The position numbers and the translations under genes were made by a program. Of a DNA stretch of 64,000 nt, positions 15,434 to 58,796 are shown piece after piece. Position 1 is the stretch's first letter, and each line of letters begins with the position of its first letter. Under the pieces are notes generated by a model that saw nothing but the letters and a program-made list of their open reading frames with translations, was not told the origin of the DNA and searched no databases. The stretch is from Moniliella sp. 'wahieum'. Taxonomy: Eukaryota. The stretch spans positions 62,001 through 126,000 of the forward strand of contig RSEE01000030.1 of NCBI GenBank assembly GCA_003971905.1. Reading direction: 5' to 3'.

Positions 15434-15645
15434 TTAAGGGGAATTGGATAGGATGGGATGATCGATGATCGATGACCCCCGCGCGAGAAGGCTGAAGCTC
15501 AGGGACGGAGCGAATCGGCGGCTGAAATCGGGGATGGAATTGGAAGCGGTTGATCGATGATCGCAATCGAATCGCAATCGAAGAGGCGCATCGTAATCGA
15601 GCAACTAGTAATCGCCCATCGGAGTTGTTCGACTGCCAATCGTTC

Positions 15646-15672
15646 TGATAATCGATAATCGATAATCGATAA
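15646..15672 (+). promoter_or_regulatory. Four tandem GATAA sites at 7-bp spacing, about 315 bp upstream of the GATA-factor ATG
   Basis: tGATAAtcGATAAtcGATAAtcGATAA; function inferred only. Confidence 0.45.
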
Positions 15673-15985
15673 CCGCTCCCAGCCTCGTGGCCGCGGGGCG
15701 GCGCAGGACACTGGCGCCGTGCGGGCAGCACCTGGTTTTGTTTTTTGGGCGTGGCACGTGTCAAGCGAGGCGCAGAGGCGGGGTGCGCAGCATGCTCATC
15801 CTAATCTCCTTGCGGTGTTCGTTGTTCTGTGGGAGTTTTTCCTTTTCGCTTTCCTCCTTTGCTTTCACCTTTGCTTTCTCCCTTGCTTCCTTCCTCTTTC
15901 TCTCCTCTTCCTCCTCTTTTCTCCTCTTCTCTCCTCTTTCTCCCTCTTTCTCTCCTCTTCCTCTCCTCTTCTCCCCCCCCACGCC

Positions 15986-18351
15986 ATGGCGGCGTACACA
16001 AGCGGCATGCCCACCCCCTACCGCCCCCCCGCCTCGCCCCTTGCCCCCTCCCCACCGCGGCATCCTCGACAGTGCCTCCGTCCAGTCCGACAGGAAACGA
16101 CTGCCTCCGCCGCCCATTCGTCCACCACGCCACATCCTTCCCCGCCTCTCCCCCCACCAAGAAGGAGAACAAGAGGGAGCAGGGCATGACCTGCATCAAC
16201 TGCCGCACCGACACCACGCCCCTGTGGCGGAGGGACGAAGACGGCAAGCCGATCTGCAATGCCTGTGGCCTGTTCTACAAGCTGCACGGCACCCAGCGTC
16301 CCATCAATATGAAAAGACAGTGATCAAGCGACGCAAACGCACCCCAGCTGCCCAACAGGCCGGCCTTGCCAAGGACGCTCCTGCCGCTACTGCCACCGCC
16401 AGGCCCGCGCAAGCCCAGGCCGTAGGCAGCACTGCCTCCACCACCTCCCCACTCTCCCCCAGCATCGGCGCCGAAAGTCTCCCTGCTAGCGACAGTGACA
16501 GCGACAGCCCCCTGGCGCACCAGTACCCGCATCCGCACCCGCAACCACCAACCCACCTCCCTCCTGCTCTCCTCCTTCCCTGGTCCCAGCAGTCGCGCCT
16601 TCCACGCCACCCAGGAGACGTACTCCTCCCCAAATCTACCTGCTCGTCGCTCCCCCAGCGCCGACCAGGCGCCCCTCGATGTGTCCCTTCGCCCCGATCG
16701 CGACCGCGAAGCAGCGATGGTGCTGATGGAAGTGGGATGCGGAGGGCGACGCGCCCCCCCGCCAGGGCCTGAACCGGAACTACCCTTGAACTTGAACCAG
16801 GTCCTGGGTGTTGGATCGGTGGGATCCGACATGTCATATCCACCACTCGCGACCCGGCCGTCGGATACGAGTCATATCCCCCCCCCGAACGCAAGCGCAC
16901 CCCAGTCGCACGGTACCTTCCGCCTCCGCCCGGGTACGCTGATCGCTATGCGGAGGAGGATGTGGCAGGGACCATGATGGTGGAGCCACATCGTTCACCC
17001 CCATCCGCTCCCCAAGCATCCCACCCACTGCCGCCAATGCGGATGGAAGTGGACTCGGGCCCAGAGCCCACGACCAAGCGTGCTCGCTCGTCGGCCGAGC
17101 CGATGGAAGCGCCTACGATGGCAATGGCCATGGCCATACCCCCCGCCGACAGTTTCCCAGCGTATTCGCGTCGACCTGGTATCCGCAACTCTACCATGCG
17201 ATCCACCTCGCAACCTGCTGCGCAGGCGCGTTCGCGTCTCCTGGGTGACTCGCCGATCCTAAGCCGGCATGGACTGCCTCTTGCTTCGCGCGGGTGGGGA
17301 GGGCGAGCCAGTCGCCAGAAATGCCGGTGGGCGCCGCTTCGTACTGGGCCCCCGGTTGGGCTGGCCAGGCAACGCCTACTCGTCTCACAAGACGGGCGCG
17401 GTGCCGCTTACGCTCCCACCGCCGTCTGGGCACCTTTTCTCTTCGACCCGCCCGCCGTTTCCCCCCGTCTCGCTGGGTGAGCGGAACGCCGATCCGTCCT
17501 TGGTCGGCGCTTCGCTCCTGCACCCCCTTGCGGAAGCGCCTTCGTATCCCGGGAGCGGGCGAACGAGTAGCGGATCCAACCCTGTTGCAACCCCTCGCTC
17601 TGGCTTCTTCCCCCTCCCCTGCCTGCTGCAGGTGCGGCGGCAGGGGAATGGGTCGCGACGCTGGAAACGGCGTGTGAGCAACTGCGGTGGGAACAGAGGC
17701 GGATGGACCAAATGCTCAGCACGTACCATGCGCTGTTGGCGCAAGCTCGAACCGCGTTCTGCGATCCGGATCCCACCCGCTCCAGGACCGGGACTGAGAC
17801 TTGCTCCCGCCAGCGTGGGATCGAGCGCTAGGCGCGCCAACACCTTTGGTCGGTCGTCGTGCCTTCTCCAAGCCCCACCGGCCCCTAGCGCACGCACACC
17901 TTCTCGCATCCGCCCGTTCCCGCTCCCTCCTTTGCCCACCACGCTGGACCCAGCCCACCCCACCGAGCCTGCACCTGCCCTCGCCTCGCTCCGCCCGGCC
18001 TTGCCCCCACCCTACCCTACGCACCTACCTCGACACACGAACGTACCGGTACCAGGGAGCAAGGAGCAAAGAGCGGAACGAAGACGCGATGGAGTCCGCA
18101 CCGTCTCGCTCCAGTTCCCGCTCCGCTCCCGCTCCCAAAGCCGAAACGAAACCCCGCGCGCTCCGAGTCGCGCCCTTGGCGCAGGAGTGACGCTGACGAG
18201 GACACGGCGATGTGGAGGCGGAGGTGAGGCAGACAGAACGGCAATGGCACATGCAGGGGGGAGCAGCGCGCGCCGGCCCGATCGCGGGGTGCGAGAGTGG
18301 GAGTGGGAGCGCGAGACGGGCGGTCGCTCCGCCGTCCCAGTCGGGGAGTGA
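15986..18351 (+). CDS. GATA-type zinc finger transcription factor (single finger; 3' end approximate)
   Basis: [41 protein letters not shown][K]TVIKRRKR (C-x2-C-x17-C-x2-C) at about 16190-16340. ATG 15986 follows a long CT-rich tract. Confidence 0.88.
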
Positions 18352-19248
18352 GGGGGAGAAGCGACGCGTGGGCGAGCGCGTGGGACAGTGGTGGGTGTAC
18401 GGACGCGGCGCTGTACCCCCACTTGCTTCGCCAGTCCAATACGCCTATTGCGCCCGATGGCTTCGCTGCCCCCCATGCGGTCCCGCCCTATCACGCCCGA
18501 ACAAAAGGTGGACGGGATGGAAGGCATGGAAGGGGTGCATGCCACGTCTTAATATACGCACGGCATTGCAAGTATCCCCGTCCCTCTACCGCGATGTGGT
18601 TGGTGCTGCTCAAGGCGGATACGGTGCGCCCGGAGCACGTAAAGCAGAGTGGTCAAGCTGGTGCAACCCCAGGGGGACAGAGACGCGGTCGGTTGTGTAC
18701 TATATATACCTATCCCACCCTTTAAGGCGCAGACAGATGAATTCGATGGATCGAGGGACCGGGTTTGCTAGCCTAGTGTGTGCCAGATGGCAGATTGGCT
18801 TAGGTGACCGGTGATGGGTCCGTACACTACGTCCCCGAATGGACATGAGAGAACGAGACTGATGTGTAGAAAGCACTGCAGACTGCCAACACTTTATACA
18901 GCCCGCTGGTTTCCGTTCGGCGCATCCGTGCGGTCTCTCCCTCATCAGTAAGATTGTGTATAGTGACGCAGGTGACGCGAGCACGATTCATGATCCGACT
19001 AGCTGTGCCTGCCTTGCGGCCCATCGGTCATCCTTATCGTTTAGTAGAAGTAGAAGCGGTTTAGTATGCGAGGCCTTCTCCTACCAGGATCCTGGCTCAG
19101 GTGTAAAAAAAAGAAGAAAAACAAATCAGCGGCGGCGCAGGCAGTTTCGCACGTCTCGCCTTTGCGCATGCAAAACTCAACCACAGGCGGTTGGTTCTGC
19201 CCCGCCAGCGACCCACGGATGTTGGTGCTCGCGCGACCCAAAAAGGAG

Positions 19249-19343
19249 TGCTTCAAAGGGGAATCGAACCCCTGTCACATCGACGTCTTACAGGCACGAG
19301 GCCAGTCTGGCAACGATGTAGTATACCACTAACCCATTGAAGC
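19249..19343 (-). tRNA. tRNA-Gly(GCC) with about 24-nt intron at the canonical 37/38 position
   Basis: Reverse complement: GCTTCAA TG GGTTAGTGGTATACT A CATCG TTGCCA [GACTGGCCTCGTGCCTGTAAGACG] T CGATG TGAC AGGGG TTCGATT CCCCT TTGAAGC A. Acceptor, anticodon and T stems pair, and a T5 Pol III terminator follows 4 nt downstream. Confidence 0.93.
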
Positions 19344-20088
19344 TTCATGACAGTGCTCCTGGAAGACTTTTGGGGGACGCTGTGCGACCCGAGGCCAACT
19401 AAGGTGGGGCAGGAAGACCGATTGACAAGTACAGGTCGACGCATGAGGCGCGGAGGTCGGTATCATTGACAAATCGCAACTAAACGAAGGAGAGTAGTAA
19501 TATACAGGTTTGGACAAACCCCGTAAAACGATATAGATCGATGGAAAGAAAAAGATACCGATGCTCCACGGCCCGAGACGAGAGGAAACCACAACTGAGC
19601 ACTGATATCCTGATTGTGAAAATGTATAGAGTGGTGACCCAAAAATGTACGCCAGTCTGCTTCGCTCTATTAAAAGCGGAGTTGCCTGCGTTGAGTGCTT
19701 ACTGTGTGCGCTAACAGTACACCGCACTGCAGGCGTAGATGAAACCAGTGAAACGAGATGTACGTTATATACCTGAAGAGAAAGGGTGAGGCGTCTTTTC
19801 GAGTCCGTCTTCTATAAGTATAAGTTTAAGACAGATGGGATATGGAATGATATGAGCCTATAGTTCATCGGACGGGTAAGAAGCACAGTGAAGAAACGGC
19901 TCTGATGGGAACGAGACAGAAGAAGTGATTCAAAAAGGCGCCATGGACCTTTCCCCTTTGGGGAACATCAGGAGCAGAAGGGAAGGGAAAAGGCGCATAT
20001 GTACAAGTGCTCTCGGCCTCCAAAAAGGCGTAGAGAGGGGCATGTGGCGCTTTCACACTGGGTTTTCGCATTTCATCGGTTCCGGTTC

Positions 20089-21758
20089 TTAGAGGGGGTT
20101 GGGTGCATCAATGTTAACCGACACGGCCTTAACCTGGACATAGTTCTCCAACGCGTAGCTTCCATTTTCACGGCCAATGCCCGAGGCCTTGTACCGCCAA
20201 ACGGCACTTGGGACGACAAGGCGTTGTACGTGTTGACCCACACTGAGCCAGCCTGGAGCGCGTGCGCCGTCTTGAGAGCCTTGGAGATGTCACGGGAAAA
20301 CACACCGGCAGCCAAGCCGTACATGGAATCGTTGGCCTTCTGCAACAGCTCTTCGTGGTCCTTAAACTTGTGCACCACGACCACCGGGCCAAAGATTTCC
20401 TCGCGACTAATCACCGAGTCTCCGACGCATCCGTAAAAATCGTCGGCTCAATGAACCACCCGCTTGGCTGGCCCTTGCCCACGTACCGCTCCGCCGGCAG
20501 CGGCTTGCCGCCCGTCACCAAGCGCCCCTCGGTCTTGCCCACCTCAATGTAATGCATGATGCGGTCATACTGCACCTCGCTAATCTGCGGGCCGAGGTAA
20601 CTGTTCGAGTCAAACGGGTCGCCCACCTTGACGGAATCAAACTTGGCCTTGAGGCCGGCAAGGAACGGCTCATAAATCTTCTCGTGCACATAGATCCGCG
20701 TTCCGGCACAGCAGGTTTGGCCCATGTTGAAGTTGGCGCCCATGGTGCACCAGGAAATGGCCTGTTCCAAGTCGGCATCGTCCAGCACCACCGACGGCGA
20801 CTTGCCACCCAGCTCGAGGGTGACCTTCTTGAGGTTGGTGTTGGCTGCTGCCTTCATCACCACGCGTCCGACGCGCGTCGAGCCAGTAAAGGAGACCTTG
20901 TCAATGTCCATGTGCTCTGCAATTGCGTTACCGGCGCCCGGGCCAAGACCCGTGACCAAGTTGACCACACCGGGAGGGAAGCCGGCTTGGTGGATCAGCT
21001 CAAACAGCTTCAGTGCCGACAAGGGCGTGTTCTCGGCCGATTTGAGCACCACCGTGTTGCCCGTAGCAGGGCAGGACCCAGCTTCCAGCCCGTCAGTACC
21101 AACGGGTAGTTCCACGGTACAATGCGCCGCACACGCCCACGGGCTCGAGACGCGTGTACTGGAACAAGTGCGGGTTTTCGCCCTGCAACACTTGGCCCGT
21201 GTGCTTGTCGGCCCAGCCAGCGAAGTAGCGAATGGTCGCGGCCAGTTGCGTGACGTCAAAGGCCTTGGCAATGGACACGGGCTTGCCATTGTCCGTGCCT
21301 CAATTGCCGCCAACTCGTCCAAGTTCGCCTCAACCAGATCGGCGAGTTTGCGAAGCATGGCAGCACGCTCGGGACCGGTCGTGTTCATGCCCCACGTCGT
21401 CTTGAACGCCCGACGCGCCGCCTTGACCGCCAAGTCAATGTCGTACCCATCGCCTTGGGAATCTCGGCAATCTGCTTCTTGGTCGCAGGGTTGTACACCT
21501 TGAGCAGCTCCCCGGTCATGGCAGAGACCCATTGCCCGCTGGATTACCGAGGTAGCAATAAGCAGTTAGGACATTGATCGCAAGGTACCTTTTGACGAGG
21601 AACGGCGCCAGATAAAAGCACGAACAAGGAAAAGGGTTCGAAACGTACTCAATGTACAGACCGCCACTGAAGCTGGACTTGGTGCCGTCGGGGAAGACGA
21701 GGTTCACTTTCGGCACGGGCGACGAGCCGTAAGGGAGACTTTGAGCAGTAGGAGCCAT
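20089..21758 (-). CDS. NAD(P)+-dependent aldehyde dehydrogenase (ALDH1/2-like)
   Basis: KVSFTGSTRVG, KKVTLELGGKSP (catalytic Glu), FNMGQTCCAG (catalytic Cys), REEIFGPV, YGLAAGVF, VPFGG. Intron 21539-21648. TATA at about 21849. Confidence 0.95.
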
Positions 21759-27760: not shown

Positions 27761-28912
27761 GGTGGACGAAAGAGGAGGAGGTGGTGGTGGGGGGGAAACG
27801 AGAAGGGGGCCCCGCGTTGCGAGGCAGCGAGTGGGAGGCTTAATATGCGAGCGCAAGCGATGGCGCACCCACGCGTGCCTTGGGGCGTGGTGCGTGAGCG
27901 CGTGAGGCTGGGCGCCGTTTGTTTTGTCAGGGGGGCCAGCGGCGGAAAATTGTTCCTAAGAACGCAGAGGAGCGGCCCCCGGGGGCGTTGGCTGCCATTA
28001 TGCATTCGACGCAGAGGATGTGGCGGCGGGCGATCTAGGATGCCACTGCCCGCCTGCCCGGGCGCGAGCGCTCTGGCGCGGCTGCAGCCACGGCGCCTGT
28101 GGCCACCACCCTCACCCACTCGATGACGCGATGGCGCGGGTGACGCGTGACGCATGACGTGCGCCGCCGTGCGGGCGATAGCAGATTCGGACGCACACCG
28201 CCCCTGTGCTGAGTTTGAGATGGGTTCTCGACGCCACATCGCTATCGCAACACTGGCGCGGTGCGTGTGCGTGGGATTGGCTTGGGCGGCACAGTTGCTC
28301 CGTTTTCGACCGGCTTTTGGCCGTGCCCGTGGCCAGGGCACACCACCAAACCAACGCAAACCCAGGGCAGGCCAGCGCACACCAAGGCACCGCCCACCCG
28401 CTCAGCTGCGCACTCCGACGCCCAGGCGCGGCGCCCGGCCCGACAACGAGCCGGCTGGCCGCTGGCGCCGTGCCTCAGCCACCACCCCAGCCAGCGGCCA
28501 ATTGCAAGCCCCCCTGAGGCGGCCGAGTCAGCCAGTAAAAAAAAGCAAAATTCTATAATCAGTCAAAGCTAGTGACTCCTTCCAAGCAGCGGGGCTGCGC
28601 CTGGGCCGTGCCTGCGTTGCCGTGTCTGTCGGCCAGTCGGATGGATGATGCAGTCGATACAGCCGCGTCAAGACACCCCCACCACACCACATGTTTTCTC
28701 CACCGCCCCACCAGCGCCCAACCCTGTGATGGGGCCCAAGAGGGCCCAGGCGGCCCAGGACTTGGATATGCTTCGGTGCCTGTCCCGGAGAAGGGGTCGG
28801 TTCAACTTGAACGTTCAACGAACGGTTCTCCGGGGCTCAGGCTGAGTGCCTCAGCAGGCTGAGGCTCAGCCTGAGCACTGAAGCTCAGTGCGCAACATTC
28901 TCCTGAGCACTC

Positions 28913-28976
28913 GCTCACTAGTCACTAGTGAGGCTCACTGCTCACTAGTCACTAGTGAGGCTCACTGCTCACTAGT
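28913..28976. repeat. 27-bp tandem repeat (GCTCACTAGTCACTAGTGAGGCTCACT) x2.4 inside a TCA/TGA-rich palindromic block
   Basis: Exact copies at 28913-28939 and 28940-28966, partial copy at 28967-28976. Confidence 0.9.
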
Positions 28977-30108
28977 TCCCCACTAGCTCGCGCCCGAATC
29001 CCCAGGATCCACTTCTCAGATCTCATTCTTATGCGCTAGGCCTTAGGCCGAGCTTGATACGTGATAGACTTGAGTGCTGCAGGCGCCCCTTGAAGCTTGA
29101 AGCTTGAATCTTGATCCGTTTGGCGCGTTCGCACCGTATGTAGATTCTTTTAGAGAGCAGTATATTATACCCCAAGCACCGTCCGCGCCCCCCCCCTGTG
29201 TTACGCCCAAAGTTATACCCCTCTTCTGCGTACTGAATCATGGTGCACTGCGCTATTAACTAACTCCGATTAACACGCAGGCGCGCTCGTCGTTATCATG
29301 CTCTTTCTCCCTCCGCCCTCCTCCGCCGGTGCCACATTTGCCCCACCTCGAGTATATTATTGACCCGTTGACTGTGAGCCACACTGTAAACTGTTCCATC
29401 AACGTCTTCGAGCACCACAACCGTAAGTACACAGGTGGTTCGCATGGCGCGGACGAAGGTATCGATCATTTGCCAAAACCCCGCATTATAATGGTCAAGC
29501 CGGCAAATTGACTTGCTCTCTTAACCTCAAGCTTCAGCTGAAGCCTTTGGAGTCCGGGCACAATACCAACATGCTATTGCTCTAGAGTGGGTGCGACCCT
29601 TCCGGGCCATCTGTTCGTTTGGGATACCACTTCCTGGTCCTCCCCTCTTCCCGGCGGAACCTCACCGTCTCTCTCTTCGCCGTGGCTCTTGATTCTTTCT
29701 TCCTCTACCGATTGCCTCCCTACTAGCCCCGCTCACATGCATGTCACACCGGTAGATCGCATGCATATCGAATCAACTGTTCAACGCCCTAACCCGTCGA
29801 TTTCGAAGCGTATCGTACCTATAGGACTTGCCCCAGCTGCAGCAATGTGCAATGTAATGCTCTGCTAAAGTCCTGAAGCTCCCAGGGGTTTAGTGCGTGG
29901 CGGGCGAGGAACAGCCACCGTCGTCGGGCCCAGCTCAGAAGACATGAACGTATGCGTGGAAATTGTTGTACAGGTGGAAGGGGGAAGAAGACACGAGAAA
30001 ACAATGGGAAGGACACCAGGTAAAAAGAGAGGACGTGGATGAGGCCCCGGTACGTAAACGTGAACGTGAAGAACATCTGTATGGAATCCTGTGGAATCCA
30101 GGAATAAG

Positions 30109-32998: not shown

Positions 32999-33692
32999 AA
33001 GCAGGAGGGGAGGTGCCGCCCTGCAGCGCATCAAGCCCCTACTGCTGGCGCACAGGGCGGAGATACCGAAGCGATACTCGCCATTTTCCACATTGTGTGC
33101 CGCTCTGTAATCTTCCTGCTCGAAACGATGATACCCGTGCCATCGACCACCGGCTGCGATAGGCAGCATAGTCGCAGCAACTATGCTATGCGGCAGGAGT
33201 ATAGGATGCGAGTGAGTAGTAGTAGTAGTGCCACTAGGCGTGGGTGCTGCATGTATATACGCGTCTGCCGGCCATGGGAGGGCCATAGACGGATTCCATT
33301 CGAAGGGGCAGCGAGGTCCCCCACGATGCGGAGGTGCTGGCGCGTGCTCGCTCCGAGGGGAGGATGGCATGCGGAGGCGAACACAAGTGTGTTGCTACCT
33401 ATGGCTTGGCACGCAGACTGCGGTACATAGACTGGAGCCAGCTGGCCGTCGGGGGCTCCCGCTGCTGCGGCGGGCAGGCAGGGACCACATGGTAATTCGA
33501 AGTGCGTGGGCGGCACGCAATGAAAAATTGCCAACACAGCCCTGTTACATGTTATGTCAGCACAAATTTAGAGTGGGCTATGCGTGAGCAACACCAACAG
33601 CGTTGTGCACCAACCGAGGCCTCTCGCTCGGCCCGCCGCCACTGCCACTGCCATTGCCGCGGCCCCCACCCCCACCACCATCCGCGCAAGCA

Positions 33693-35963: not shown

Positions 35964-37528
35964 ACGCACATGGAACCTTTCGTTCCACTCGCGCTTCGTC
36001 CTAGCCATTCTTCAGCGGGGCCTCGTCCATTCCACGGCGTTGGTACCGTTCGCGACATTGTCATATTCCCCACTTGCATCCTCTGCATCCTCTGTGCCTC
36101 CTTCCTCATCTTCACACCTTTCCTCCCTCCTCGCCTCCTTGCGCCTAACCTTCTTTTGCAAGGATGTGTCCTGTAATGTTGTCTTGCCCCGTACCTCGCA
36201 TACTGCTCGTTGCCGGTCTTCATTCGTGCTCCTGTCCGCGTTCGGTTTTCGCTGCTATTCCCCTTGCAGGCATTCGTCCCGCTGTTTTCTCTCCTATTAA
36301 GAGCAGTCCTAGTCACCCCCAATCCCCCCAAAAAGAGGGCCCAAACGCCCTCCGCTTCGTCCCAATCCATCCCACATGGAAACCTCGGTTGGGCACATAT
36401 ATAGGCCATCAGTCTCGAGTGGAAGAGTCAGCGTGACATGACATGCGACACGCGTCCCTGCTTCCCGCCGCCCCCCAACGCCACGCCCCTGCGACGACAG
36501 AGTGACGCAGTCGGGGTGGCAGGACTAAATGGTCGACGGAGTGGCCTTGGCCGTGACTTGGAGCTCCTGGTGGTGGTGAAATCGGGGGGCAAAGTAAGTT
36601 AGCCACTGAGGTTCTATACGCGGGGAGAGAAGTAGTAGGCCAAGTTCAGCGGCTCAACCTTAGGTACTAGTCGCGCTTGTCATGTGGTTGCGATCCCATC
36701 GACTCAGCCTCTCTCTTCCAGAGCCTTTTCTCCAGCTTCCTTCCAGGTTGCCCCAGGTTGCATGTTACACCCTCTGTCTGATACGGGGCATGTGCATGTG
36801 CTGGGGAGCGCTGAGGCTCAGCGCTCAGGCTGAGCACGCACGTGTGCTAGTTGCACATGCAATGGCACTGCTGCGCATGTTACATGTTAAGCTTTAAGCT
36901 TTGGGAGGCGCCAAGCCAAGTGTTGGTGAACGGGTGAACAACGCCGTCGATCCCGATCGTCAATCATTGATCATCCATCCGCCCCAGTCCGGCGAGCAGA
37001 GTACAATGCGCATGCCTGGCACGATGCATGAGTCATGTGAGTGGTGGTGAGCATGTGGGGGAAAGCTGCAAGAGGCTTGCGTGGAGACGGGTTGATCGTG
37101 ATCGAGTGATCGATGATCGTCCGAGGCCCTCTGGCTGCCCGTCTCCCTCAAAAGGGGACGTTGCGGCGCTCACGCTCATCGGCATCGATGTAATCAATCT
37201 CATCCATCTCAGACCTCATCGACCTCATCCCCGTGGCTGAGCGGCGGGGTGAGGGATTGCCGATTGAGTCTAAGGCCCAATGGACGTTGTTACAACGTTT
37301 CAATGGACAACGGTGTGCGCTCTACGACGTTCAGCTCAGCCATGCTTCCACCTGCATCCATGTGGTTTCCTCCTCCGCCGCCTCTGCCCAGGCAACAATA
37401 GCCTGCACGCTCCTATACACGCCGTTTGGTTATAAGCGACTTGGGCGGCTGTGCTCGCCATGTACAGATAGCTACCACTGCTGGTACTGCCCGCCGTCCC
37501 CTTCTCGTCTTCCCCCCCCGCTCTCTCC

Positions 37529-43544: not shown

Positions 43545-43780
43545 CCGGTGTGCGGCGCAGCTTGGGCTCCGTCCTAAGCTGCCTGCCCCCCTGCTTGCTT
43601 GGCTCTCAAGCTTTATGGTCAACAATGTAGTGCTCAACCTGCAAGAAAAGCAATTTTGTATTTGGAACTGCATCTCCTCCACGTTGGAAGTTCAACCCTC
43701 CCCTGCCTCTTGGCCGATTGATGGGTTGGATGCAATCTCACGTGGGGGTGGAAAGGGGGGAGTACTTGTGACGCGCTCGG

Positions 43781-48383: not shown

Positions 48384-51300
48384 GGAGGGGGGGAGGGCGG
48401 CCGCGGCCAGGGCGGGAATGGCGACGACGCGGAGGGGCAAGGGGAGGGGCAGGGGAACGGGAAGGAAAGGGAAGGGAAGGGGGGGATGGGCAGGACCTGG
48501 GCCGGAGGGTGGAGGGCCGGGGGACAGGTGGGAGTGGGAGGTGGGAGTGGGAGTGGGCAGCAGGCTGCGATGGGCTGGCGTAGGACACTCACTGCTTTGG
48601 GACACTCTGTCCAGCCGCTGTACTCAAAGCACCCGGAGAGAATGGAACGCCTGGGGGGCAGTCTGATCATCGATCACTGAGACGCAGTGCTGGGTGGGAT
48701 GCATGTGATCGATGATTAATGAGAGTCTGCGCTGCCCGTGGCGCCGCCTGGCGCCGCTGCAGCTGCCGCGGCTCACGCGCTGAGCCCAAGCGTCCGACTC
48801 GACATGCATAACGCGTAACGCAGCCCAGCAGCCCAGCGCTGAGCACCTGCCCATCCGTCTGAGATCCCTGCTTGGTCATCCATCCACCCTCGCTCACCCA
48901 TCTCCAGCACTGCTCCCCTGCCCCGTCGGACGACCTCGCACCACACCACCCTCCTGCGGCTCTACGCCTCTGCGCCCCTTGCCTCGCCCCTGCTGCGCCA
49001 CCTCCCAAACACACCGGCCCTGTGCCCACCCTCGGCCCTTGCCTGCCCCTGGGCGTTTCTCCTCTCCTCGTTCTTGCTCGTCACCCATGCATCAGGCCTC
49101 AGGCATCAGGCCGCAGGTGGGAGCAGGCACTAGCTCCCTGTGGCAGCGTGTGGCCCTGCACCCGTGTCTCCTACTTGTACAAGACCCTGGCGGCCAACGC
49201 ACGCTGCGGCAGCCCCTTGGGTGGGGCTTGCATTGGGTCGATGCGGGTTCTGAAATCAACTGCTTATTCGGCCCCCATCGGCCGTGGCCGTTGAGGCCAC
49301 CATCTCTCGTGTATGTGGCAGCCTCAGCGCTGGCGCTCAGCGAGCGCTCAGCCCCCAGCCCCGCTAGCGCCGCTCCGGTCTCACCCCCTCCTTATCCATT
49401 GATCCCAGCTGGTCATTATAGTCCTCCACATTGGGCCTCTGCTGGAAACCAAGACCCCGGCGGCACGGTTGTGCGTCTCCATCATTGCATCAATGCTGAT
49501 CACAGCATTCGGCACGCACTCGTCCTCCGTGCATCCGCGTCATCACTCTCCCTCGGCAGCAACACTCTCCACACAACTCGAGGGGGCTTGCTCCCCTTTC
49601 ACGCCGCCTCGGCTACGAGATAGCCACCTACCAACCCGCAGAAACAAGTGCGCATGTTATGTACGAGACGAGACCCGTGTCGGCGGCGCTGCGGGCAACA
49701 CAGCGAAGACAATGCTAGCCCCCCCCCGTGTGGAAGCTTTGAAGCACTGCTTGGAGTAGACGAGAGCTGACTCAAGACGTCAGTGATGAAGTCGATGAAG
49801 TGTGTGTTTGGCCTGCTCCAATCGTTGGTGCAATTTAAGCCGCCACCACACGGGCGAGGTCTCAGCAGAGAGGGAGAAAGACTCTACTATATCCCTCGTC
49901 CCCCCGCAATGTAATGATCTTGGCCACCCAGCGATGTCCAAGTGCATCAGTTATGCTATGGTCGAGAGGAAGCAGGAGCTGCGTTGAACGTTGAACCCAT
50001 ACTGAGGATCAGAAGAAGAAGAAGTTAAGGAGAAGAAGGAGAAGAAGAAGAGTGGCACATGAGCAGAGGAAAGGGATACTGGCGTAGCGCCCGACGAGTA
50101 AGAAGGTCAGGATGACCTCGATGACCTTGGAGGTGGCTGACCCATAGGACCCTGGTCAACACAATGTAAAAGATCAAATGCTCCCCGAGAAAAGTGGGCG
50201 TAGCACGAAAGCCTGTGCAGCTGTGCAGGACATACAAGTTCTCGGATCTAGGAACAACGGATGGCGTCGAGCCGTTCAGGTCCTCTCTGAAAAAAGGAAT
50301 AACGCCATGTTGTGGTGACGGTGGTGGTTGAGATCTGAGATCTTCATCAGCTTCATAGAGACCAACACACGGGGAACAGACCGGGGTTGAGACAAAAGCC
50401 CGCGTTTGTATACAAACAAAAGTCTGCGTTTATGCACACATGCCTAGAGGCTTCGGGCATCTGAAGCCGACGTGTGGTGAGGCTGCGTATGCACCGCGGC
50501 TTGGGTCGTAGTAACGTGTCTGAAGCCTGCGGGGCTTAGGGATGGGTTAGAGGCAGTGGAGGACAAATATACTGCCTGCGTCGAGGCTGGGCAGGGATGG
50601 CTGTCGACGTGGCTGGAAAGGAACCCACGCGATATGCTGTGGTACGGGGATTCGACGCGGCTGAAGGAAGGCTCGTGCGGCTGGGCGGATGGAGAGCTGG
50701 AGGACGAGTTTGGAAGACGATGAGGAGGCAGCTATAAGCGGAGACGAGAGGTTGCCTGTATTATTGAAACGACTGGCTGGAAACGGCCAGGAGTTGGACA
50801 GGAAAGGCGGGAAGGGACGAGAATGGAAGGTGGGGAAAGGATCCCCATTGAACAAGGATGCTGACTGTGGGCTGACCATTTGGTAGCCCCCTCCTGTCTA
50901 AGCTGGTATATATATGTTGACAGAGCGAAGCAGACGAAGCAAGCGAAGGCTGCGAAGGCACTAAAAATATCATCCGATAGCACTTCCTCGTATAGCAATG
51001 TCACACAGGTCGGAAGTGACCTTGCTGCCCCACAGCGCTGGGGGTGCTGCGCTCTTCAGCGTACAACGCCAGCAAATCGCCAGCGGTTCGGAGTGGTTGA
51101 AGAGAGTCATGGAACGTCTGCTCCCGCTCCAGCCCCGCTCGCGGATTGGTTGCTACTTGAGGTCGATGAAGTTATTCGGAAGCGTGTGGCGCAGGCGGCA
51201 CGTGACGTGTGACGTGAATAAGAAGGGGGATAGGTGAGGCTGTGGTGCGTGGCGTTATGAAATTTGAAGGATCAAGTGACGCGTGGTGTAGAATGCATGG

Positions 51301-52448
51301 TGCTTGATCGATGATCGATGACGCGATGACGTGTGCATGTGAGCGCCTGAGCCTGAGCCGCGTTGAGGTGATGCATGATGCACAGGCCTTCTCGTACTCA
51401 CCAGTTGCTCACCAAGCGTACAGGGCGCTGACAGCGCTGACAGGCGGTGAGGCATGGGTGTCGATGACATGTTGACAAGGCGCTGGCCCTGGGGGGTGCA
51501 CGTCGCAGTCGACGGAAGCGACGAGGGCGCTGCCCGCGTTTTGGGCGGTCTGGCTGGGGTGGCCTGGGGTGGCCGCGTGTGGCTGGCGGCCAGAAGAGAA
51601 CGACGCCGTGCTCAGCCTGAGCTATGTATGCGAGACTCATATCTACCGCCCACAAGGCCAGTCGCCAGGCGCCAGCCCCTAGTCAGTGCCTTTGTGCAAT
51701 TGCTTGCAAGAACGCATCGGTCATGCATGACGCGGTTTTGATTGGATTTGCATTTTCTTTTCTTCTTATCGACTATCGATTATCGCCCTTTCGGCCAAGC
51801 CAGGCCTAGCCGCGCGTGCTGCACAAGCGGACGCCGTGTTCGGCCGCGCGGGGCGCGGAGCCTCAGCACGGACAGTCACCGCCGCTGGAGCGCGCGCGAC
51901 TTGGGTGTTGGCCTACATCGAGTGGAAGAGCCAGGTGCCGGATGGGCCATGCTGTTTCTTGCTTTGCCCGCTTTTCGCTGGGGAGTAGCGAGGAGTAAGA
52001 AGTGGTATAGTGATAAGGCAAAGCACCCCCATACCCGGCCCTCTTGCATTCGCGGGACACCATGAAGCATGGCTCTGCTTCAATCAGAGCCGCTCCTACT
52101 AGGTAGCTCCTCGAATTGAAGCTTTCGAAGAAGCTTGAAGCTCGAGAAATCGTAGGCACTTACTTCAAAGGGCGAATGAAACTTGAAAACATGGGCCACA
52201 GGCCTCGGGCCCATAGTTCATTTTGGGGGAGCACGGCGCCAGTGCTGGGCCAGTGTAGTTCGCAGGAAGCACTTGGCCAGTGTATGCGCCGTGTCAGTTT
52301 CGCCCCGAGCAGAGCGGAGCACGGACGGAGAGATTGGCAAGAAAGCCAGAGGCCACAGAACGACAGAGTGTACTCCCAGGCCGCCTCAACCCCCCCCCCC
52401 CCCCCCCCGAGTGTATAAGAAGGCTGGGCCGACACTTATCTCTTCGCC

Positions 52449-53965
52449 ATGTCAAGCATCCCACCGCCCTTCTTCGCTCGACGATCCGTGCTGTGTCTGT
52501 TCCCCCCCGTGTCCTGCCTGCTGCACGTGCCATGTCTCAACTTTCTGCCGCTGCAACCTTTGGCGATGAGCACCTCACCTCGGCCATCAGCCGCCTGAGC
52601 AAACACGTCTTTGTGTCGGGCAAGGGTTCTTGGGTCACCACTGACCAGGGCAAAGAGCTTCTCGACCTTACCTCGGGCATTGGCGTGACCAACCTTGGCC
52701 ACTGCCACCCCAAGGTGACCGCTGCGGCTGTCAAGCAGGTCCAGTCCATTGTGCATGCCCAAGTGAGCATTGCTTACTCGGAGGCGCAGATCAATGCGAC
52801 CAAGAAGATCCTCGGTGTTCTCCCCCACCCTTCGCTCGACAACATCTTCTTCTGGAACTCGGGATCGGAAGCGGTTGAAGCTGCTGTCAAGCTTGCTCGC
52901 CTGGCGACCAACCGACAGAACATTATTGTTATGCAGGGATCTTACCATGGCCGCACCCAGGGTGCCATGGCGATGACCACCTCCAAGACGGTGTACCGCG
53001 CCGGTACGCTGCCCAACATGGTACGTATTTCACGCTCTGCCGTTCGTGGTTGCCTTGGGCTAACCCCGTCCTTTCTAGCCTGGTGTGTTCACGACGCCCT
53101 ATCCCTACTACTCGCAGCTGGTGTGACGCCCGACACGGATGAGGAGACGATGAGCACCATGTGCCTGCACAGCTTGCGTCTGTTGCTGATGAAGCAGCAA
53201 CCGCACCCAAAGATACTGCCGCCATGTGGTGGAAGGTGTGTTGGGCGAGGGCGGGTACGTTGCGACGCCCACGCCCTTCCTCAAGGGCCTGCGCAAGATC
53301 TGCGACGAGCATGGCATTCTTCTTGTGGTGGACGAGGTCCAGTCGGGCTTTGGACGCACGGGGAAGATGTTTGCGGTGGAGTACTCGGGGGTGCGCCCGG
53401 ATGTGCTGATCAGTGCCAAGGGCTTGGCCAATGGGTTCCCTCTCTCGATGATTGTCGCTTCCAAGGAGCTGATGGACAAGCAGCCTGTCGGCTCGGCCGG
53501 TGGCACGTACGCTGGTAACGCTGTTGCCTGCGCGGCGGCCGAGGCAGTTGTGGATGCGTTCCAGGAGGAGAAGGTGCTGGACAATGTCAATGCGCGCAGC
53601 AAGGAACTGTTTGACTTCCTCTTTGCGCTCAAGAACAGTGGTACCAAGGCTGGCAGTCTGATCCAGGACATTCGTGGCCAAGGTCTTATGGTTGGCCTCC
53701 AGTTCTCTGCTGCCCAAGACGGCGCTGTGGCGCCCAAGGCGGCTCCTGGTCAACTCGTTCCTTTCGAGGTGGAGCCTACAGGCAAGGCGCAACTCGCTCC
53801 TCAGATTAGCAAGGAGTGTCTTGCGCGCGGTGTGCTCTTGCTCTCCACCTCCACCCAGGATACCATCCGTTTCATCCCCCGCTCACCATCTCGAAGGAGG
53901 AGCTGGCTAAGGGCCTCCAAGTCTTCAAGGAGTCTCTCGAGGCTGTTGTGGCCAAGCTTCCATGA
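52449..53965 (+). CDS. PLP-dependent class-III aminotransferase (4-aminobutyrate/acetylornithine aminotransferase-like)
   Basis: LDLTSGIGVTNLGHCHP; NSGSEAVEAAVKLAR; SYHGRT; VDEVQSGFGRTG; SAKGLANGFPLS (PLP Lys); GGTYAGNAVACAA. Intron 53021-53078. Alternative ATG at 52532. Confidence 0.93.
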
Positions 53966-55093
53966 ACACAGTTCCAAGAGTTACCAGCTGCCTCAAAGTT
54001 GATTTTGTACATTCCCACACCACATCAAAACTGTGCCCTCAGTAGATCGTTTGAACCTTGGCTAATACGTAGCGAAGCAAAGAGAGGATCGCTCTAGTGA
54101 GCTCTATCTAGCCTAGCCGACTGATGCGCAGCCGTTACCGAATCATTCGCAGGGAAGCGCAATCCAGCCGACGATGGTACAAACAGAAAATGGGGCGGTC
54201 GAGGTATATCGGTTTAGGCGTAGCGTTTCCCTGTCCCAGCGTTAAGCTCTGTCAATGATATGGACGCAGTATAATAGTAGAGTGCAAAAGTACATAAAAC
54301 CTCACGCGTTAAAAACAAGTACACGCAATTTTACCCCACAAAACGTGAGGCTCCAAAAGTTGCATACAACGAGAGGGCAACCCGACAACGCGTGGGCATG
54401 GCCCGATTGGGACCACGGCCTGTGCTTTCTGGATCTACTTGGCGCAATGGAGTCGGCCCTAGTCCTCACATCATTTGATCTTCAAGCTGGTTTTTAGGCC
54501 AGTCAAGCTTCAAGTGAGGCCGGTCAGGCAATGCATATTACAGTTAGTACTCGTTTATTCTGCTGTTTGGATTTGTGTGTCTTCAAAAACGAAGAGACGC
54601 GAGTAGCTCAGTGTATCCCCCCACGTTTCTTACAGTACGCCTGCTGACACCGGTCAATGGTCACTTTGAGCAAGGATCACTTTATCTGTACGATGAGTAA
54701 CCCTTAGCACCAACGACCGTGATTCATCAACCAACGCCAGATCGCAGTGCAGGTGCCAGCCAGCATCATCCCCGCTTACCCCACAATCCCCCATCCATAC
54801 GGCCTCCCGTACTCCTCACATGTCACAATGGCATGGAAAACTACTTCTCGCGATCAGTGCGCCGAACACTCCCGCATAGACGCGCGTAAAGGAATACATT
54901 ACGGCACAATTGGGTCCGTTCGCGACCCGCCGGAGAGGTTGAGAAAAGGGTTCGTAGCCAATCAAGTCGTAAGGGAGCCAAGTGATGCAATTTAGTTGTT
55001 GGCACACATTGAGGGGAGAGAGCGAGAGATTAGATTCCAGCATCTGTCGCCGACATTTCGGCGGCAGGAGAGAAGGTTGGTAATACAACGCTA

Positions 55094-56874
55094 TTAGACA
55101 CTGTACCTGAACTCAGGGTTGGACCGGTCGGTCAAGTTGAGGAACTCGTGGTTCTTAGTTGGTGGCTCGTATGTGCCATTGGCAATCGCTTCCTCCTTGG
55201 CGAGCGCGTTTGCGGTTCTCCCGGACAAAGAGGTACCACATCAGTGCAAAGTCCAGAGCACAGATGAAATAGATGATGGCAATGGCGATCTTTGCAGGCA
55301 GGTAACGGGGAGCCGTGTTGTGTGCATGATCTGAGGCGAGATGATGTTCTGGGTAGATGTGGGGAAATGCAAAGTAAGATGCGAGATGAAAAGTTAGTCA
55401 ATCGGTCCACAGAAAAAGAACAGAGAAGTCCCGACGTAAGCCGATGGTGTAGGCCACAGTCTGGATGGCTGAAACCGTAATTTTCTTACTCGCTCCTCAA
55501 CATTGGACGAGGTAAGTCCAAGATGGTGACCCATCCCAGAGGAATGGCACCCGTTAGGAAAATCCAATCAATGCTGGCCCTTGCCCGTCGTGGCCATCAG
55601 GACCGCCCCTACAAACCCAGGAATGTGACCGACAATGCACCAGAAAATCCGCTTGTTTGTCCTTGAACCCGAGCCAGCTGAGCCCAATGAGCACCACCAC
55701 TTCTACTGCGCCCAACGGTGTCACCAGAATCAACGACTGGTTCGCCGTGTATCCGAGGCCCATGACAAGCGTGGTGCCAAACGAGGTGGCAAGAGAGTTG
55801 GGAATGTTGGCGGCAAACGTCCAAAACGAATAGGTCCACGTGAACGGATCCCGAAGCGCTTCGCGGCACTGAGCCCAGTCAAAGTGCCGGGATCCAATCC
55901 CTTGCTCGTTGCTGCGCAGGCGCTCAATGTGAATCGCCTTCTCCCGGTCGGTGAGGAACCAAGCATCGGCGGGCGAGTTGGGTAGCAGCATGTAAAACAT
56001 AACCCCAAACAAGGCTGCCATGATGCCAAAGACGATAAAGCAAATCTGCCAACCGCGAAGGGTTGCGTGCGGGTCCGATCCCACATGCGTCGCAATCCCA
56101 TACGCAATCGCGCCCCCCAAGATCTGGGATAGACCACAGGTAGCGAACCAAAGGCCAACACGGAACGCCTGTTCACGGCGAGTGTACCATTGGCTGGTAT
56201 ACACCACCCATGCAGGCACCACTGTAGCTTCCGTGAGGCCAAGGAAGAAACGTGCGGCAAGCAAGCCACCATAGGACTTGACTCCCGCTTGTGCCGCCAC
56301 AATCACGCCCCAAAGGATCACATTGATGGAGACGTACGGCCGAAGCGGAAAGTATTGCATCAGACGGATGGTGGGGAACTCACCCACAGCTTGTCCAACA
56401 AAGAAGAGTGTGGCCACCACATTAAAATGGTCTCCCACTGCCAAACTGGGAATCGACTTTTTGATCCCCAGCGCAGCGGCGTACGAGATGGAGCTCTTAT
56501 CCAAGTACTGGGTAAAGTAGATGACCAGCAACATGGGAAGCACATGCAAATCCACTTTGCGCACAAGCCGGCGCTTTTCTTCGGCCGTCACTTCCCCCAG
56601 CGGACCGACGCGGGCGAGGACTTGGAGAGCGTCATCTGCATGAGAGTTGATAGACTCTTCCGATTCAGTCGCGGCAGGCGCGCCGACGTCGTACTTCAAG
56701 TCATTAGCCTCTTCGCTGTGGTTGTCAACCAAGCTGCGCGGCAAGTCTGGCACCCGGCTGCTGCACCTTCAACGTCAATCTTCTCCTTTTCAGAGGGAGG
56801 CGAAGCGGCCATTCTTTTCTGCGAATGGTGCGGGGGCGGGGGGATATGGTGGTCGCTGGAGAGGTGGCATACAT
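55094..56874 (-). CDS. MFS transporter, allantoate permease (Dal5/ACS) family
   Basis: RLVRKVDLHVLPML..QYLDKSSISYA; ARFFLGLTEA; WYTRREQAFRVGLW; LPNSPADAWFLTDREK; QCREALRDP; NIISPQ; NLTDRSNPEFRY. Confidence 0.93.
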
Positions 56875-57699
56875 GACAGAGGAAAGATATATATGTAGCT
56901 TTTTCTGGACCTGTTCAAACGATGTGCCAATGTGACATGCGCAAATGTTGGATTGACGTGCTCGGCATGCTCTCAATGTGGGGGAGTCTTGGCGGCAGAT
57001 TTTTTTAGCCGCCAATTCGAGCACTACCAAGGGATCTAATCGATCTAATCCAAGATCTCGATCCACACTCTTCCATGCCCCGCAAGCCTGAGACCCTGAG
57101 ACGCCACTGCTTTTTACTGCCTCTCAGATCTCATGCATCACGACCCAGATGATGGCTGGGCAGGTACTGGGGGCTGTGACTCCGTACTCGGTGGCTGAGG
57201 CCCTGAGGGAGAACTCACAGATACTCAGGTTGAGCACACTTGTGAGTACCTTGAGTAGCCAGACGGTGTACCGACGACCAGTGTGGCTCAGGCACAAGCA
57301 TGGGCAAAGTCACCGATGCGGACCAGGCCTGCCCAGGCCCGAGACCGGATCCCGCCACAGCTTGCCTGAGGTGTTCGTGTGTCCACAAGCCATCGGGGGA
57401 AGTTGACTAGTGGCTAGTGACTAGCTGGCTGCCCCTGAATAAGGAGGTAGGGGGGCAGGGCATGAACTAGTGAACCAGTGAACGTTGAACTCAACGTTCA
57501 ACTCAGTGGACGAGCAGGTTACTGGACGTTACGCGTTAGGGCAAAAACTTCCGGCGGCACCGGTAGGCGCACCCGCCCATCGGATCGGGTGTGGTGGTAT
57601 GGCGTAGTGCCGGGTTCTATGTTCGACGTTGATGCTAGCACGCCATACGTCCATGGATGTTGGTCATCTGCATGGTTGTACGGTCGTGTGCCTGGTCGA

Positions 57700-57751
57700 T
57701 GATCGATGATCAATGATCAATGATTAACGATCGATGATCAACGATTGATGA
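57700..57751. repeat. Eight-unit 7-bp-period array (TGA/CGA + TCGA/TCAA/TTAA/TTGA)
   Basis: TGA at 57700, 57707, 57714, 57721, 57735 and 57749; CGA at 57728 and 57742. Confidence 0.9.
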
Positions 57752-58796
57752 TCCGCTTGCCTTGGCGATTTCAAGTTGAAATTCCGACGAGGCAGATATG
57801 CGCTGAAGAAATTTCTTCGGCCAAGTACTAGCTGCTCCACACGTTCCGCTTGCCATTGGCCTTGAGTCTTGAATCTTGAATAGCAAGCTACCGCACTTCC
57901 TTGAGACTTGCGTGTTGGGCGCTGGAGCGTCAAGGGCCATGCACATGCATCGTGCGAGTTGTACAAGCTGGTCTCTCAGATGCCCCCAGCCTCAGCGACT
58001 AGTGAGGCACGCAATGAGATGAAGAGAGAAGGAGAAGTTGGTCTCTGATTGAACTTATTACCCATCCGCATTATCGCAACACTCATCAGTGCTCTCCGTA
58101 CGGTCAGCATGGGCCACTAGTCACTAGTCACTACTGTCATACAGCTCATCTCTGCAGATATCTTCCGCCCGCTTGCTTCTCCTGTCCTACCGTACAAGGT
58201 ATTGGCCGTGCATGCCATCTGAATCGCCCCTATTATAGGCCCGGATGCAAGGAAGCGTGTGCGGCGACCCGCTCCCCTGCTGCTGGCTACGCAACCGCGG
58301 CCAACGTCCCGCCAGCCTGGAAAAACATGACGGATCTTCACGAATGACGAAGCGATGAAGGATGAAGGATGAAGTGGGGCCAAGATGCTAGCCTGCCCGT
58401 CGAAATGCGAAAAGGTGCCCGCCAGGCAATAGCCGCCCTGGTCTACCGACGACGAGCGGGTGCTGGAGTACAATGGACCAAAATACATTCCTCGGTCTCC
58501 AACGTGGATAACCAAGACCGTTGGATCCATCATGCATCATGGAGACGTTGTGATAGACCTGTTGGTGACCGTGACCGCTGAACGTGCAAAGCAAGCACAG
58601 GGGATGCTGGCGCGCCCTCAGCCTCATCCGCCAGCGGATCCGAGGGAGCCCAAGACATCGTTGCCACCTGGCTGGAATAGTGGACCGGACGTACTTTGAA
58701 CCCCTCGGAGCCACGGCGCATTAACCTCAGATGCTTCCATCACGCCATGTGCTGACACGGGCGAGGAGACAGTAGCGGTTTCTAACGCGCACAGAG

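What the first reader, a model, noticed from the sequence alone, without database searches (positions are those of the whole stretch)
15459..58372. Shared intergenic pattern: T(C/G)A triplets at a 7-bp period with variable, mostly palindromic 4-bp spacers
Seen: many short repeats that look unrelated fit one rule, (TSA-N4)n. Examples: TGA-TCGA-TGA-TCGA-TGA (15459, 51305); TGA-CGCG-TGA-CGCA-TGA (28141); TCA-CTAG-TCA-CTAG-TGA (28915); TGA-AGCT-TGA-AGCT-TGA-ATCT-TGA (29091); TCA-AGCT-TCA (29527, 54503); TGA-TGCA-TGA (31537, 51369); TCA-GCGC-TCA (36818); TGA-TCGA-TGA-TTAA-TGA (48706); TCA-GGCC-TCA-GGCA-TCA (49092); TGA-ACGT-TGA (49985, 57479); TGA-GATC-TGA (50329); TGA-AATT-TGA (51258); TCA-TGCA-TGA (51721); TCA-GATC-TCA-TGCA-TCA (57124); TGA-GTCT-TGA-ATCT-TGA (57863); TCA-CTAG-TCA (58121); TGA-AGGA-TGA-AGGA-TGA (58356). 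The triplet and period stay fixed while the spacer changes, even within one array, which simple slippage of one unit does not explain. The clusters sit in intergenic, promoter-side DNA. Inference: a polymerising or multimeric DNA-binding protein reads TSA half-sites and defines promoters, nucleosome-free regions or origins; a hairpin-driven mutational process is the alternative. From memory, Ustilago maydis intergenic DNA has similar GTGAATC-type arrays; this is unverified here.
Basis: partly seen in the sequence, partly recalled or inferred. Interest (0 to 1): 0.75.

Follow-up and report, generated by a model that had tools for sequence, protein, structure and literature searches.

The report
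Transposon exit scars build heptamer arrays
The 7-base repeats between the genes of this fungus are most likely repair scars left where an unusual EnSpm-type jumping gene landed on T-N-A sites and cut itself out again, so they record a mutation process rather than protein-binding sites.

Summary
The pattern is real: 100 TSA-N4-TSA sites against 47±7 in shuffles; 45 have palindromic spacers against 3±1.5. The rule is T-N-A, not TSA, and the spacer is copied from the two flanking bases plus their reverse complement (44 of 49 window sites). Homeologous contigs show these units as insertions that are not tandem duplications; the duplicated stretch never exceeds 7 bp. A low-copy EnSpm/CMC-like transposon family (five 4.85-4.97-kb copies, CTCACTG ends) sits only on nnTNAnn heptamers (13 of 13 flanks), with a perfect 7-bp duplication in 5 of 6 end pairs and one verified empty site. 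Best reading: excision footprints (hairpinned flanks opened about 2 nt past the tip, then end-joined), with repeated hits and slippage building arrays; about 60,000 sites by extrapolation. No element-to-scar pair was seen, no intact transposase was found, and surviving copies have a narrower target than the scars. The protein-binding reading is not supported: the sites are the least conserved non-coding DNA. The scan noted this pattern and these elements before on other pieces of this genome.

The parts
15459..15672 (.). Cluster of six palindromic T-N-A sites (TGA-TCGA and TAA-TCGA arrays) in a gap modelled as convergent
   Evidence: one 7-bp unit polymorphic at 15666
28808..29114 (.). Cluster of eight palindromic sites (ACGT, CTAG, GATC, AGCT spacers) about 1.2 kb upstream of a minus-strand gene start at about 27764
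   Evidence: 27-bp and 8-bp gaps against the homeolog
33543..33554 (.). Single 7-bp non-tandem insertion tg-TTA-CA-TG-TTA-tg (5-bp repeat plus 2 inverted bases), absent from the homeolog
36818..37229 (.). Cluster with a polymorphic 7-bp insertion at 37107 and a 9-bp footprint at 37214-37229 (full heptamer CCTCATC, GA, CCTCATC)
48667..49108 (.). Cluster of palindromic sites in a divergent gap
49785..49800 (.). 9-bp non-tandem footprint GATGAAG-TC-GATGAAG, absent from the homeolog
51258..51730 (.). Cluster about 1 kb upstream of the aminotransferase gene; at 51272 the window has a plain GA-TCA-AG site where the homeolog has both a left-derived (TCGA) and a right-derived (AGCT) spacer
52463..53960 (+). 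Neighbouring gene: class-III aminotransferase (4-aminobutyrate aminotransferase-like); coding DNA nearly free of the sites
54501..54514 (.). 7-bp insertion ag-TCA-AG-CT-TCA-ag; homeolog has the single site
55557..56768 (-). Neighbouring gene: MFS transporter, present in several segmental copies that were used to polarise events
57035..57723 (.). Cluster upstream of the MFS gene, with a 9-bp footprint at 57037 and a polymorphic 8-bp footprint at 57195
57863..58539 (.). Arrays that differ among four paralogous copies; GATGAAG repeats at 58354-58374 (non-palindromic spacer: doubled heptamer or slippage)
59403..59417 (.). Site where only one of four copies (C13 homeolog) carries AG-TGA-CT-AG-TGA: polarised as an insertion

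Best explanation
The arrays are accumulated excision footprints of a cut-and-paste DNA transposon of the EnSpm/CMC type that duplicates a 7-bp target pq-TNA-xy. Step 1 (shown): the element inserts at nnTNAnn and duplicates all 7 bases. Step 2 (inferred): on excision each flank is sealed into a hairpin exactly at the element boundary, as RAG/Transib do. Step 3 (inferred from the products): the hairpins are opened about 2 nt past the tip, giving 4-nt palindromic overhangs xy-y'x' and q'p'-pq. Step 4 (products shown, pathway inferred): end joining usually keeps one overhang and drops the other, giving TNA-xyy'x'-TNA or TNA-q'p'pq-TNA (+7 bp); rarer joints keep more (+8, +9, +11). Step 5 (partly shown): the new triplet lies in a palindromic heptamer whose two overhangs would be cohesive, so repeated hits, helped by slippage, extend homogeneous arrays, while hits at the outer triplets add spacers copied from each flank, which gives arrays with two different palindromes. 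Scars persist where a 7-bp insertion is tolerated, with a bias to upstream regions.
For: Flank rule: 44 of 49 window sites; among 252 isolated sites the period-7 match stops after exactly two bases on one side (52 and 41 sites), only 79 of 252 can be tandem duplications. Class counts in 454 kb at T.A versus A.T/C.G/G.C cores: one overhang 542 vs 4/13/14; plus one base 38 vs 1/9/1; full heptamer twice plus 2 inverted bases 40 vs 1/2/9; duplication longer than 7 bp: 0-2. Homeolog indels: 26 of 58 clean 7-bp, 4 of 27 8-bp and 5 of 19 9-bp indels fit; 15 are non-tandem against 2 at control cores; polarised as insertions. Mixed arrays are ordered as predicted (left 18 of 25, right 15 of 25; wrong way 0 and 2). 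Element: five 99%-identical copies, about 65-bp TIRs, subterminal repeats, EnSpm-like transposase remnants (E 3e-10 to P0017, a Transposase_21 protein); 13 of 13 flanks nnTNAnn; 7-bp direct repeat in 5 of 6 end pairs; empty site on C46 holds one CATCAAC; one end (C23:153495) sits on the second triplet of an existing scar.
Against: No site was found with the element in one copy and a scar in another. All transposase frames seen are broken (decay or assembly indels; 2,774 one-base gaps in 367 kb of alignment). Surviving ends have A/T next to TNA at 22 of 26 positions, recent scars at 12 of 30 (hand count; p=0.0009), and 154 isolated scars show no preference beyond T.A, so this family as it is now cannot be the only source. 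About 60,000 sites (0.86/kb) stand against five full copies. No element with a 7-bp TNA duplication lay in the first 0.85 Mb held. The C11 copy has two different flanks. CMC hairpin geometry is recalled by analogy to Transib/RAG; no paper on CACTA footprints was found.
Confidence: 0.8

Rival explanations
1. A host process with no inserted element (a stand-alone or domesticated hairpin-forming nuclease, or a replication template switch) writes the scars at T-N-A; the transposon merely shares the target.
For: Scar number far exceeds element number; scar targets are broader than element targets; TIR-less CMC transposase genes exist at C34:513262-516872 and C17/C62.
Against: The hard cap at 7 duplicated bases and inverted bases from both flanks need a prior 7-bp duplication, which the element is shown to make; the polymorphic events have no microhomology at the switch point (read by eye); the C17/C62 gene decays neutrally (14/18/16 mismatches by codon position).
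Confidence: 0.12
2. The arrays are selected binding sites for a multimeric protein that reads TSA half-sites every 7 bp and marks promoters.
For: Bias to divergent gaps (1.8 vs about 1.0 per kb) and a peak 0.8-1.5 kb upstream of modelled starts; gap-free sites are slightly less substituted than other TNA (about 0.036 vs 0.045).
Against: Mixed pairs not enriched; spacer fixed by flank; rapid turnover between homeologs; different arrays at the same place in four paralogs. Secondary use of some scars is not excluded.
Confidence: 0.04
3. Ordinary slippage of palindromic heptamers (microsatellite birth).
For: 16 of the 26 fitting 7-bp indels are also plain tandem changes; a general 6- and 7-bp repeat richness.
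Against: 173 of 252 isolated sites have less than 7 bp of repeat; 15 non-tandem polymorphic events; T.A specificity. Slippage can extend arrays but not start them.
Confidence: 0.02
4. Sequencing or assembly artefact.
For: The assembly has many one-base indels, also in coding DNA.
Against: Sites avoid coding DNA 15- to 30-fold; many are shared by homeologs; phased mixed-palindrome arrays also occur in unrelated metagenome contigs.
Confidence: 0.02

Closest known systems
Fungal EnSpm/CACTA elements of the CMC(T) clade, e.g. CNIRT6 of Cryptococcus neoformans (PMC12810828, passages read) and rust EnSpm families (PMC12730594, section 3.1 read)
   Same: TIRs containing CACTG, subterminal repeats, transposase remnants with CxxC, HxxxH and final E region similar to Transposase_21 proteins.
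   Different: Ends begin CT-CACTG, not CA; duplication is 7 bp at nnTNAnn, whereas CNIRT6 makes 3 bp of variable sequence and the clade is described with 2-5 bp.
P nucleotides at RAG coding joints (PMC2175297, abstract read); Transib by recall
   Same: Even, zero-loop palindromes of the flank; opening 1-4 nt past the tip gives 2-8-nt overhangs, which covers the 2-nt additions here.
   Different: Here the ends carry a 7-bp duplicated target and the joints are heritable and genome-wide.
Ac/Ds (hAT) footprints in plants, S. cerevisiae and C. albicans (PMC5873905, passages read); hAT7 of rusts (PMC12730594)
   Same: Duplication plus short palindromic insertions from hairpin opening; hAT7 makes 7-bp duplications.
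   Different: hAT palindromes are centred on the complement of the boundary base; here they are even and N is kept in 542 of 601 cases; no hAT domains rang (both without a working control).
NuwaII PHIS transposons, target C|TNA|G (PMC4482050, passages read)
   Same: T-N-A target core.
   Different: 3-bp (or 5-bp) duplication with fixed C and G; no DDE_Tnp_4 match in this genome; scars show no C/G preference.
Short-range template-switch mutations (recalled, not read)
   Same: Local inverted copy of adjacent bases.
   Different: Fixed length, T-N-A anchoring, 7-bp cap and lack of microhomology are not expected.

Membership tests
Excision footprints of flank-hairpin transposases | Target duplication of fixed length around the joint | tested here: met
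   Duplication capped at 7 bp; equals the element's duplication
Excision footprints of flank-hairpin transposases | Filler is an inverted copy of the flank end | tested here: met
Excision footprints of flank-hairpin transposases | Element with the matching target in the genome | tested here: met
   13 of 13 flanks nnTNAnn; finer preference differs (22 of 26 vs 12 of 30)
Excision footprints of flank-hairpin transposases | Same site seen with element and with scar | tested here: inconclusive
   One empty site examined; it is the plain pre-insertion site
Excision footprints of flank-hairpin transposases | Hairpin intermediates, dependence on the transposase | not testable with these tools
   Needs an assay
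EnSpm/CACTA (CMC) | Transposase of the Transposase_21/CMC type | tested here: inconclusive
   Broken remnants only; E 3e-10 for the C-terminal part; PF02992 did not ring on these copies; no tree built
EnSpm/CACTA (CMC) | 5'-CA..TG-3' (CACTA/CACTG) termini | tested here: not met
   Ends are CT-CACTG; the empty site shows CT belongs to the element
EnSpm/CACTA (CMC) | 2-3-bp (clade 2-5-bp) duplication | tested here: not met
   7 bp
EnSpm/CACTA (CMC) | TIRs with subterminal repeats | tested here: met
hAT / hAT7 | Footprint palindromes centred on the complemented boundary base | tested here: not met
hAT / hAT7 | hAT transposase domains | tested here: inconclusive
   No match, controls silent
PHIS/NuwaII | 3-bp TNA duplication flanked by C and G; DDE_Tnp_4 transposase | tested here: not met
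Selected protein-binding array | Conservation of sites between homeologs | tested here: not met
Selected protein-binding array | Spacing-dependent binding or chromatin effect | not testable with these tools
   No runs were listed; needs pull-down or reporters

The most novel reading that the evidence does not exclude
A CACTA-derived transposase whose cutting register has moved 2 nt outward on both substrates (CT added outside CACTG; 3-bp TNA widened to a 7-bp duplication) has hopped tens of thousands of times at low copy number, or works hit-and-run, and has become a main writer of new non-coding DNA in this lineage: each visit leaves a cohesive palindromic heptamer that invites the next, so promoters fill with a self-growing 7-bp lattice that could later be used by host proteins. 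The same grammar in metagenome contigs of other organisms suggests the lineage of elements is wider than this genome.
Probability: 0.35. Interest if true: 0.82.

Novelty: new variant of a known kind. Interest (0 to 1): 0.63.

Why it matters
It gives a concrete route by which short tandem repeats are born de novo: transposon scars, not slippage, seed them. It offers a fossil record of tens of thousands of past insertion sites in a genome with almost no surviving copies, from which target choice and hairpin-repair outcomes can be read. It points to an EnSpm-like lineage with a 7-bp duplication and shifted ends, outside the 2-5-bp range given for the clade. It also warns that such promoter-side arrays will look like regulatory motifs in motif searches.

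Tried and rejected
Protein-binding, slippage-only and artefact readings: see rivals. Tc1/mariner-type footprints (bases left from the element ends) rejected: the spacer follows the flank, not a fixed end. hAT chemistry rejected on symmetry. Family searches of the genome with no match: PF05699, PF13359, PF18758, PF10551, PF18759, PF14372, PF13960, PF03184 (controls silent in 28, 46, 52, 98). PF02992 found two TIR-less genes; no ends or 7-bp duplication were found around them; P0016 found only these two. Structural scans of held DNA found no element. Guessing CACT ends next to CATCAAC found no pair. C125, C132 and C16:880-885k hits were not element ends. No sequencing runs were listed, so no reads were laid. 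Protein searches did not name the organism; basidiomycete-like by gene content, 'smut-related' only from earlier notes. Ten paper searches listed nothing describing these arrays or a 7-bp EnSpm duplication; Table S1 of PMC12730594 has no '7 bp' entry but holds no duplication column; other supplements and subscription papers were not seen.
Full report
Observation. All 21 examples are present as quoted. TSA-N4-TSA occurs 100 times against 47.35±6.88 in 100 shuffles, and 45 of the 100 spacers are palindromes against 3.1±1.5 in 200 shuffles. The excess is carried by identical triplets (48 and 33), not mixed ones (5 and 14). TAA and TTA behave alike, while A-N-T, C-N-G and G-N-C do not, so the rule is T-N-A. 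The window is G000:C30:62001-126000 of a 69.5-Mb assembly in which four phased TSA triplets occur 7,521 times per strand against 1,554 for the reversed pattern.

Where the sites lie. A gene model trained on Pfam-confirmed frames and on homeolog divergence over 214 kb of C30 (no RNA data) gives 0.06 palindromic sites per kb in coding DNA, 0.2 in introns, 1.8 in divergent gaps and about 1.0 in tandem and convergent gaps, with a peak 0.8-1.5 kb upstream of modelled starts. Missed genes may blur these classes. Exclusion from coding DNA is expected of any 7-bp insertion.

The spacer is written from the flank. Of 49 same-triplet palindromic sites in the window, 44 have a spacer made of the two bases next to one triplet plus their reverse complement. 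Among 252 isolated sites in 454 kb (both homeologs included), the period-7 match most often stops after exactly two bases on one side (52 and 41 sites); only 79 of 252 have the 7 matching bases a tandem duplication needs. In 25 arrays whose first and last palindromes differ, the left flank matches the first spacer in 18 and the right flank the last in 15; the wrong-way matches are 0 and 2.

The units are insertions. The assembly holds pairs of contigs 88-95% identical, read here as homeologs. Gap lengths show a bump at 7 (115, against 97 at 5 and 6 and 57 at 8). Of clean indels, 26 of 58 at 7 bp, 4 of 27 at 8 bp and 5 of 19 at 9 bp fit the model below at T.A; 15 of these are not tandem changes, against 2 non-tandem fits at the three control cores together. 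Extra copies polarise several as gains: window 59403 and about 58335 (one copy of four each), and two successive gains of 7 and 9 bp in one of five copies of a repeat. At window 51272 the homeolog carries both a left-derived and a right-derived spacer where the window has one plain site. Gap-free sites are, if anything, slightly less substituted than other TNA, which I count as weak evidence for the binding rival.

The geometry is a 7-bp duplication with hairpin ends. Write the target pq-TNA-xy. In 454 kb of non-redundant DNA, both strands, TNA-xyy'x'-TNA-xy occurs 542 times at T.A against 4, 13 and 14 at the other cores; with q also repeated 38 against 1, 9, 1; with pq repeated (the whole heptamer twice around two inverted bases) 40 against 1, 2, 9; with both overhangs kept 4 (two sites) against 0. 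Repeating three or more upstream bases gives 0, 2, 1, 2: the duplication stops at 7. N is unchanged in 542 of 601 cases, and 154 isolated first-time scars show no preference beyond T.A. A plain doubled heptamer is only a minor class (28 against 12, 12, 22). Ac/Ds footprints are centred on the complement of the boundary base (PMC5873905, passages), which does not fit; even palindromes opened 1-4 nt past the tip are the RAG/Artemis pattern (PMC2175297, abstract).

The element. My own scans of the first 0.85 Mb and eight transposase-family searches found no element (see Tried and rejected); PF02992 found two TIR-less genes, one decaying neutrally. Earlier notes of this scan gave a heptamer and an end motif, which I tested. 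Pattern searches and fetches found five full copies: C11:228241-233089, C23:154552-159519, C29:72158-77127, C34:500340-505284 (ends only fetched) and C35:43991-48846, 99% identical inside, plus a 378-bp short copy on C20 and single ends. They have about 65-bp TIRs starting CTCACTG, subterminal repeats and broken frames similar to the C-terminal part of Transposase_21 proteins (E 3e-10). Five of six end pairs have a perfect 7-bp direct repeat (CATCAAC or its complement three times, in both orientations; GATCATG; GATGATG); the C11 copy has two different heptamers. All 13 independent flanks confirmed by homology are nnTNAnn; the other matches were not all examined. The homeologous empty site on C46 holds a single CATCAAC, which proves the duplication and shows that CT belongs to the element. 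One end sits on the second triplet of an existing scar.

What is against it. I saw no site with element in one copy and scar in another. No intact transposase was seen; the frames may be broken by decay or by assembly indels. Surviving ends have A/T beside TNA at 22 of 26 positions, recent scars at 12 of 30 (hand count; p=0.0009), so other families, an earlier enzyme, or biased retention must be invoked. About 60,000 sites (0.86 per kb over 384 kb, extrapolated) stand against five copies; this is possible because scars add up with time while copies do not, but it is not shown.

Beyond this genome. One scan of metagenome contigs for a three-spacer pattern gave 11 loci; in several the array continues in phase with further, different palindromes (for example L098, L100, L104), while density outside the arrays is low. 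One locus carries an NB-ARC-TPR-like gene; the organisms were not identified. This is a lead that the process is not unique to this genome.

Comparison and verdict. It works like excision by flank-hairpin transposases. The element resembles fungal EnSpm/CACTA (CNIRT6: CACTG ends, 3-bp duplication; PMC12810828, passages) but fails two defining features, the CA terminus and the 2-5-bp duplication given for the CMCT clade (PMC12730594, section 3.1), so I do not file it as a member. 7-bp duplications are known for hAT7 of rusts (same paper), a TNA core for NuwaII (PMC4482050, passages). Ten searches of the open library found no description of such arrays. The scan had already noted the pattern and four of these elements on other pieces of this genome; their lengths (4870, 4959, 4982, 4984) equal my C35, C34, C23 and C29 copies with duplications. 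Verdict: real, mutational, a new variant of a known kind; confidence 0.8, interest 0.63.

Noticed in passing
G000:C35 from about 48902 (L112, L139), C72:165207 (L130, L138), C10:329510 (L127, L137): A second young TIR family, 4.9-5.3 kb, ends CATAGCTAATCG, 94-99% identical, at least 11 near-full left ends; 2-bp duplications (TA on C72, TC on C10); no hit to the CMC proteins tested.
   Followed up: partly
G000:C34:513262-516872 (L090, L093, L094): Single-copy EnSpm-like transposase gene with D, D, CxxC, DxxH, HxxxH and E-region motifs, two frame breaks and no TIRs found; no homeologous copy was returned.
   Followed up: partly
G000:C17:556-559 kb and C62:282-283 kb: Fossil Transposase_21 gene at a syntenic place in both homeologs, decaying neutrally.
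   Followed up: yes
G000:C11:228241-233089 (L125): Full copy with two different nnTNAnn flanks; may mark recombination between two copies.
   Followed up: no
window 50467-51000 and 54210-54270: Pieces of a dispersed repeat with 30 or more copies at about 80% identity, one end with a (TAG)-like tail; probably retrotransposon-derived.
   Followed up: partly
whole assembly: Contig pairs at 88-95% identity (C30/C13, C8/C77, C47/C10, C56/C59, C17/C62) plus paralogous blocks at about 78% (C30 vs C8/C77): looks like a hybrid on top of an older duplication; C152 and C19 are 100% identical over 9.65 kb.
   Followed up: partly
window 54720-59450: MFS transporter region repeated at least four times on C30 and four times on C13 at 85-91% identity.
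   Followed up: partly
window 19249-19343 (-): tRNA gene with 95-98% identical copies elsewhere.
   Followed up: no
window 52463-53960 and other genes: Frequent one-base frameshifts in conserved genes suggest uncorrected long-read errors.
   Followed up: no
L098:5001, L100:4486, L104:4987: Mixed-palindrome T-N-A arrays in metagenome contigs of about 53% G+C from other organisms.
   Followed up: partly
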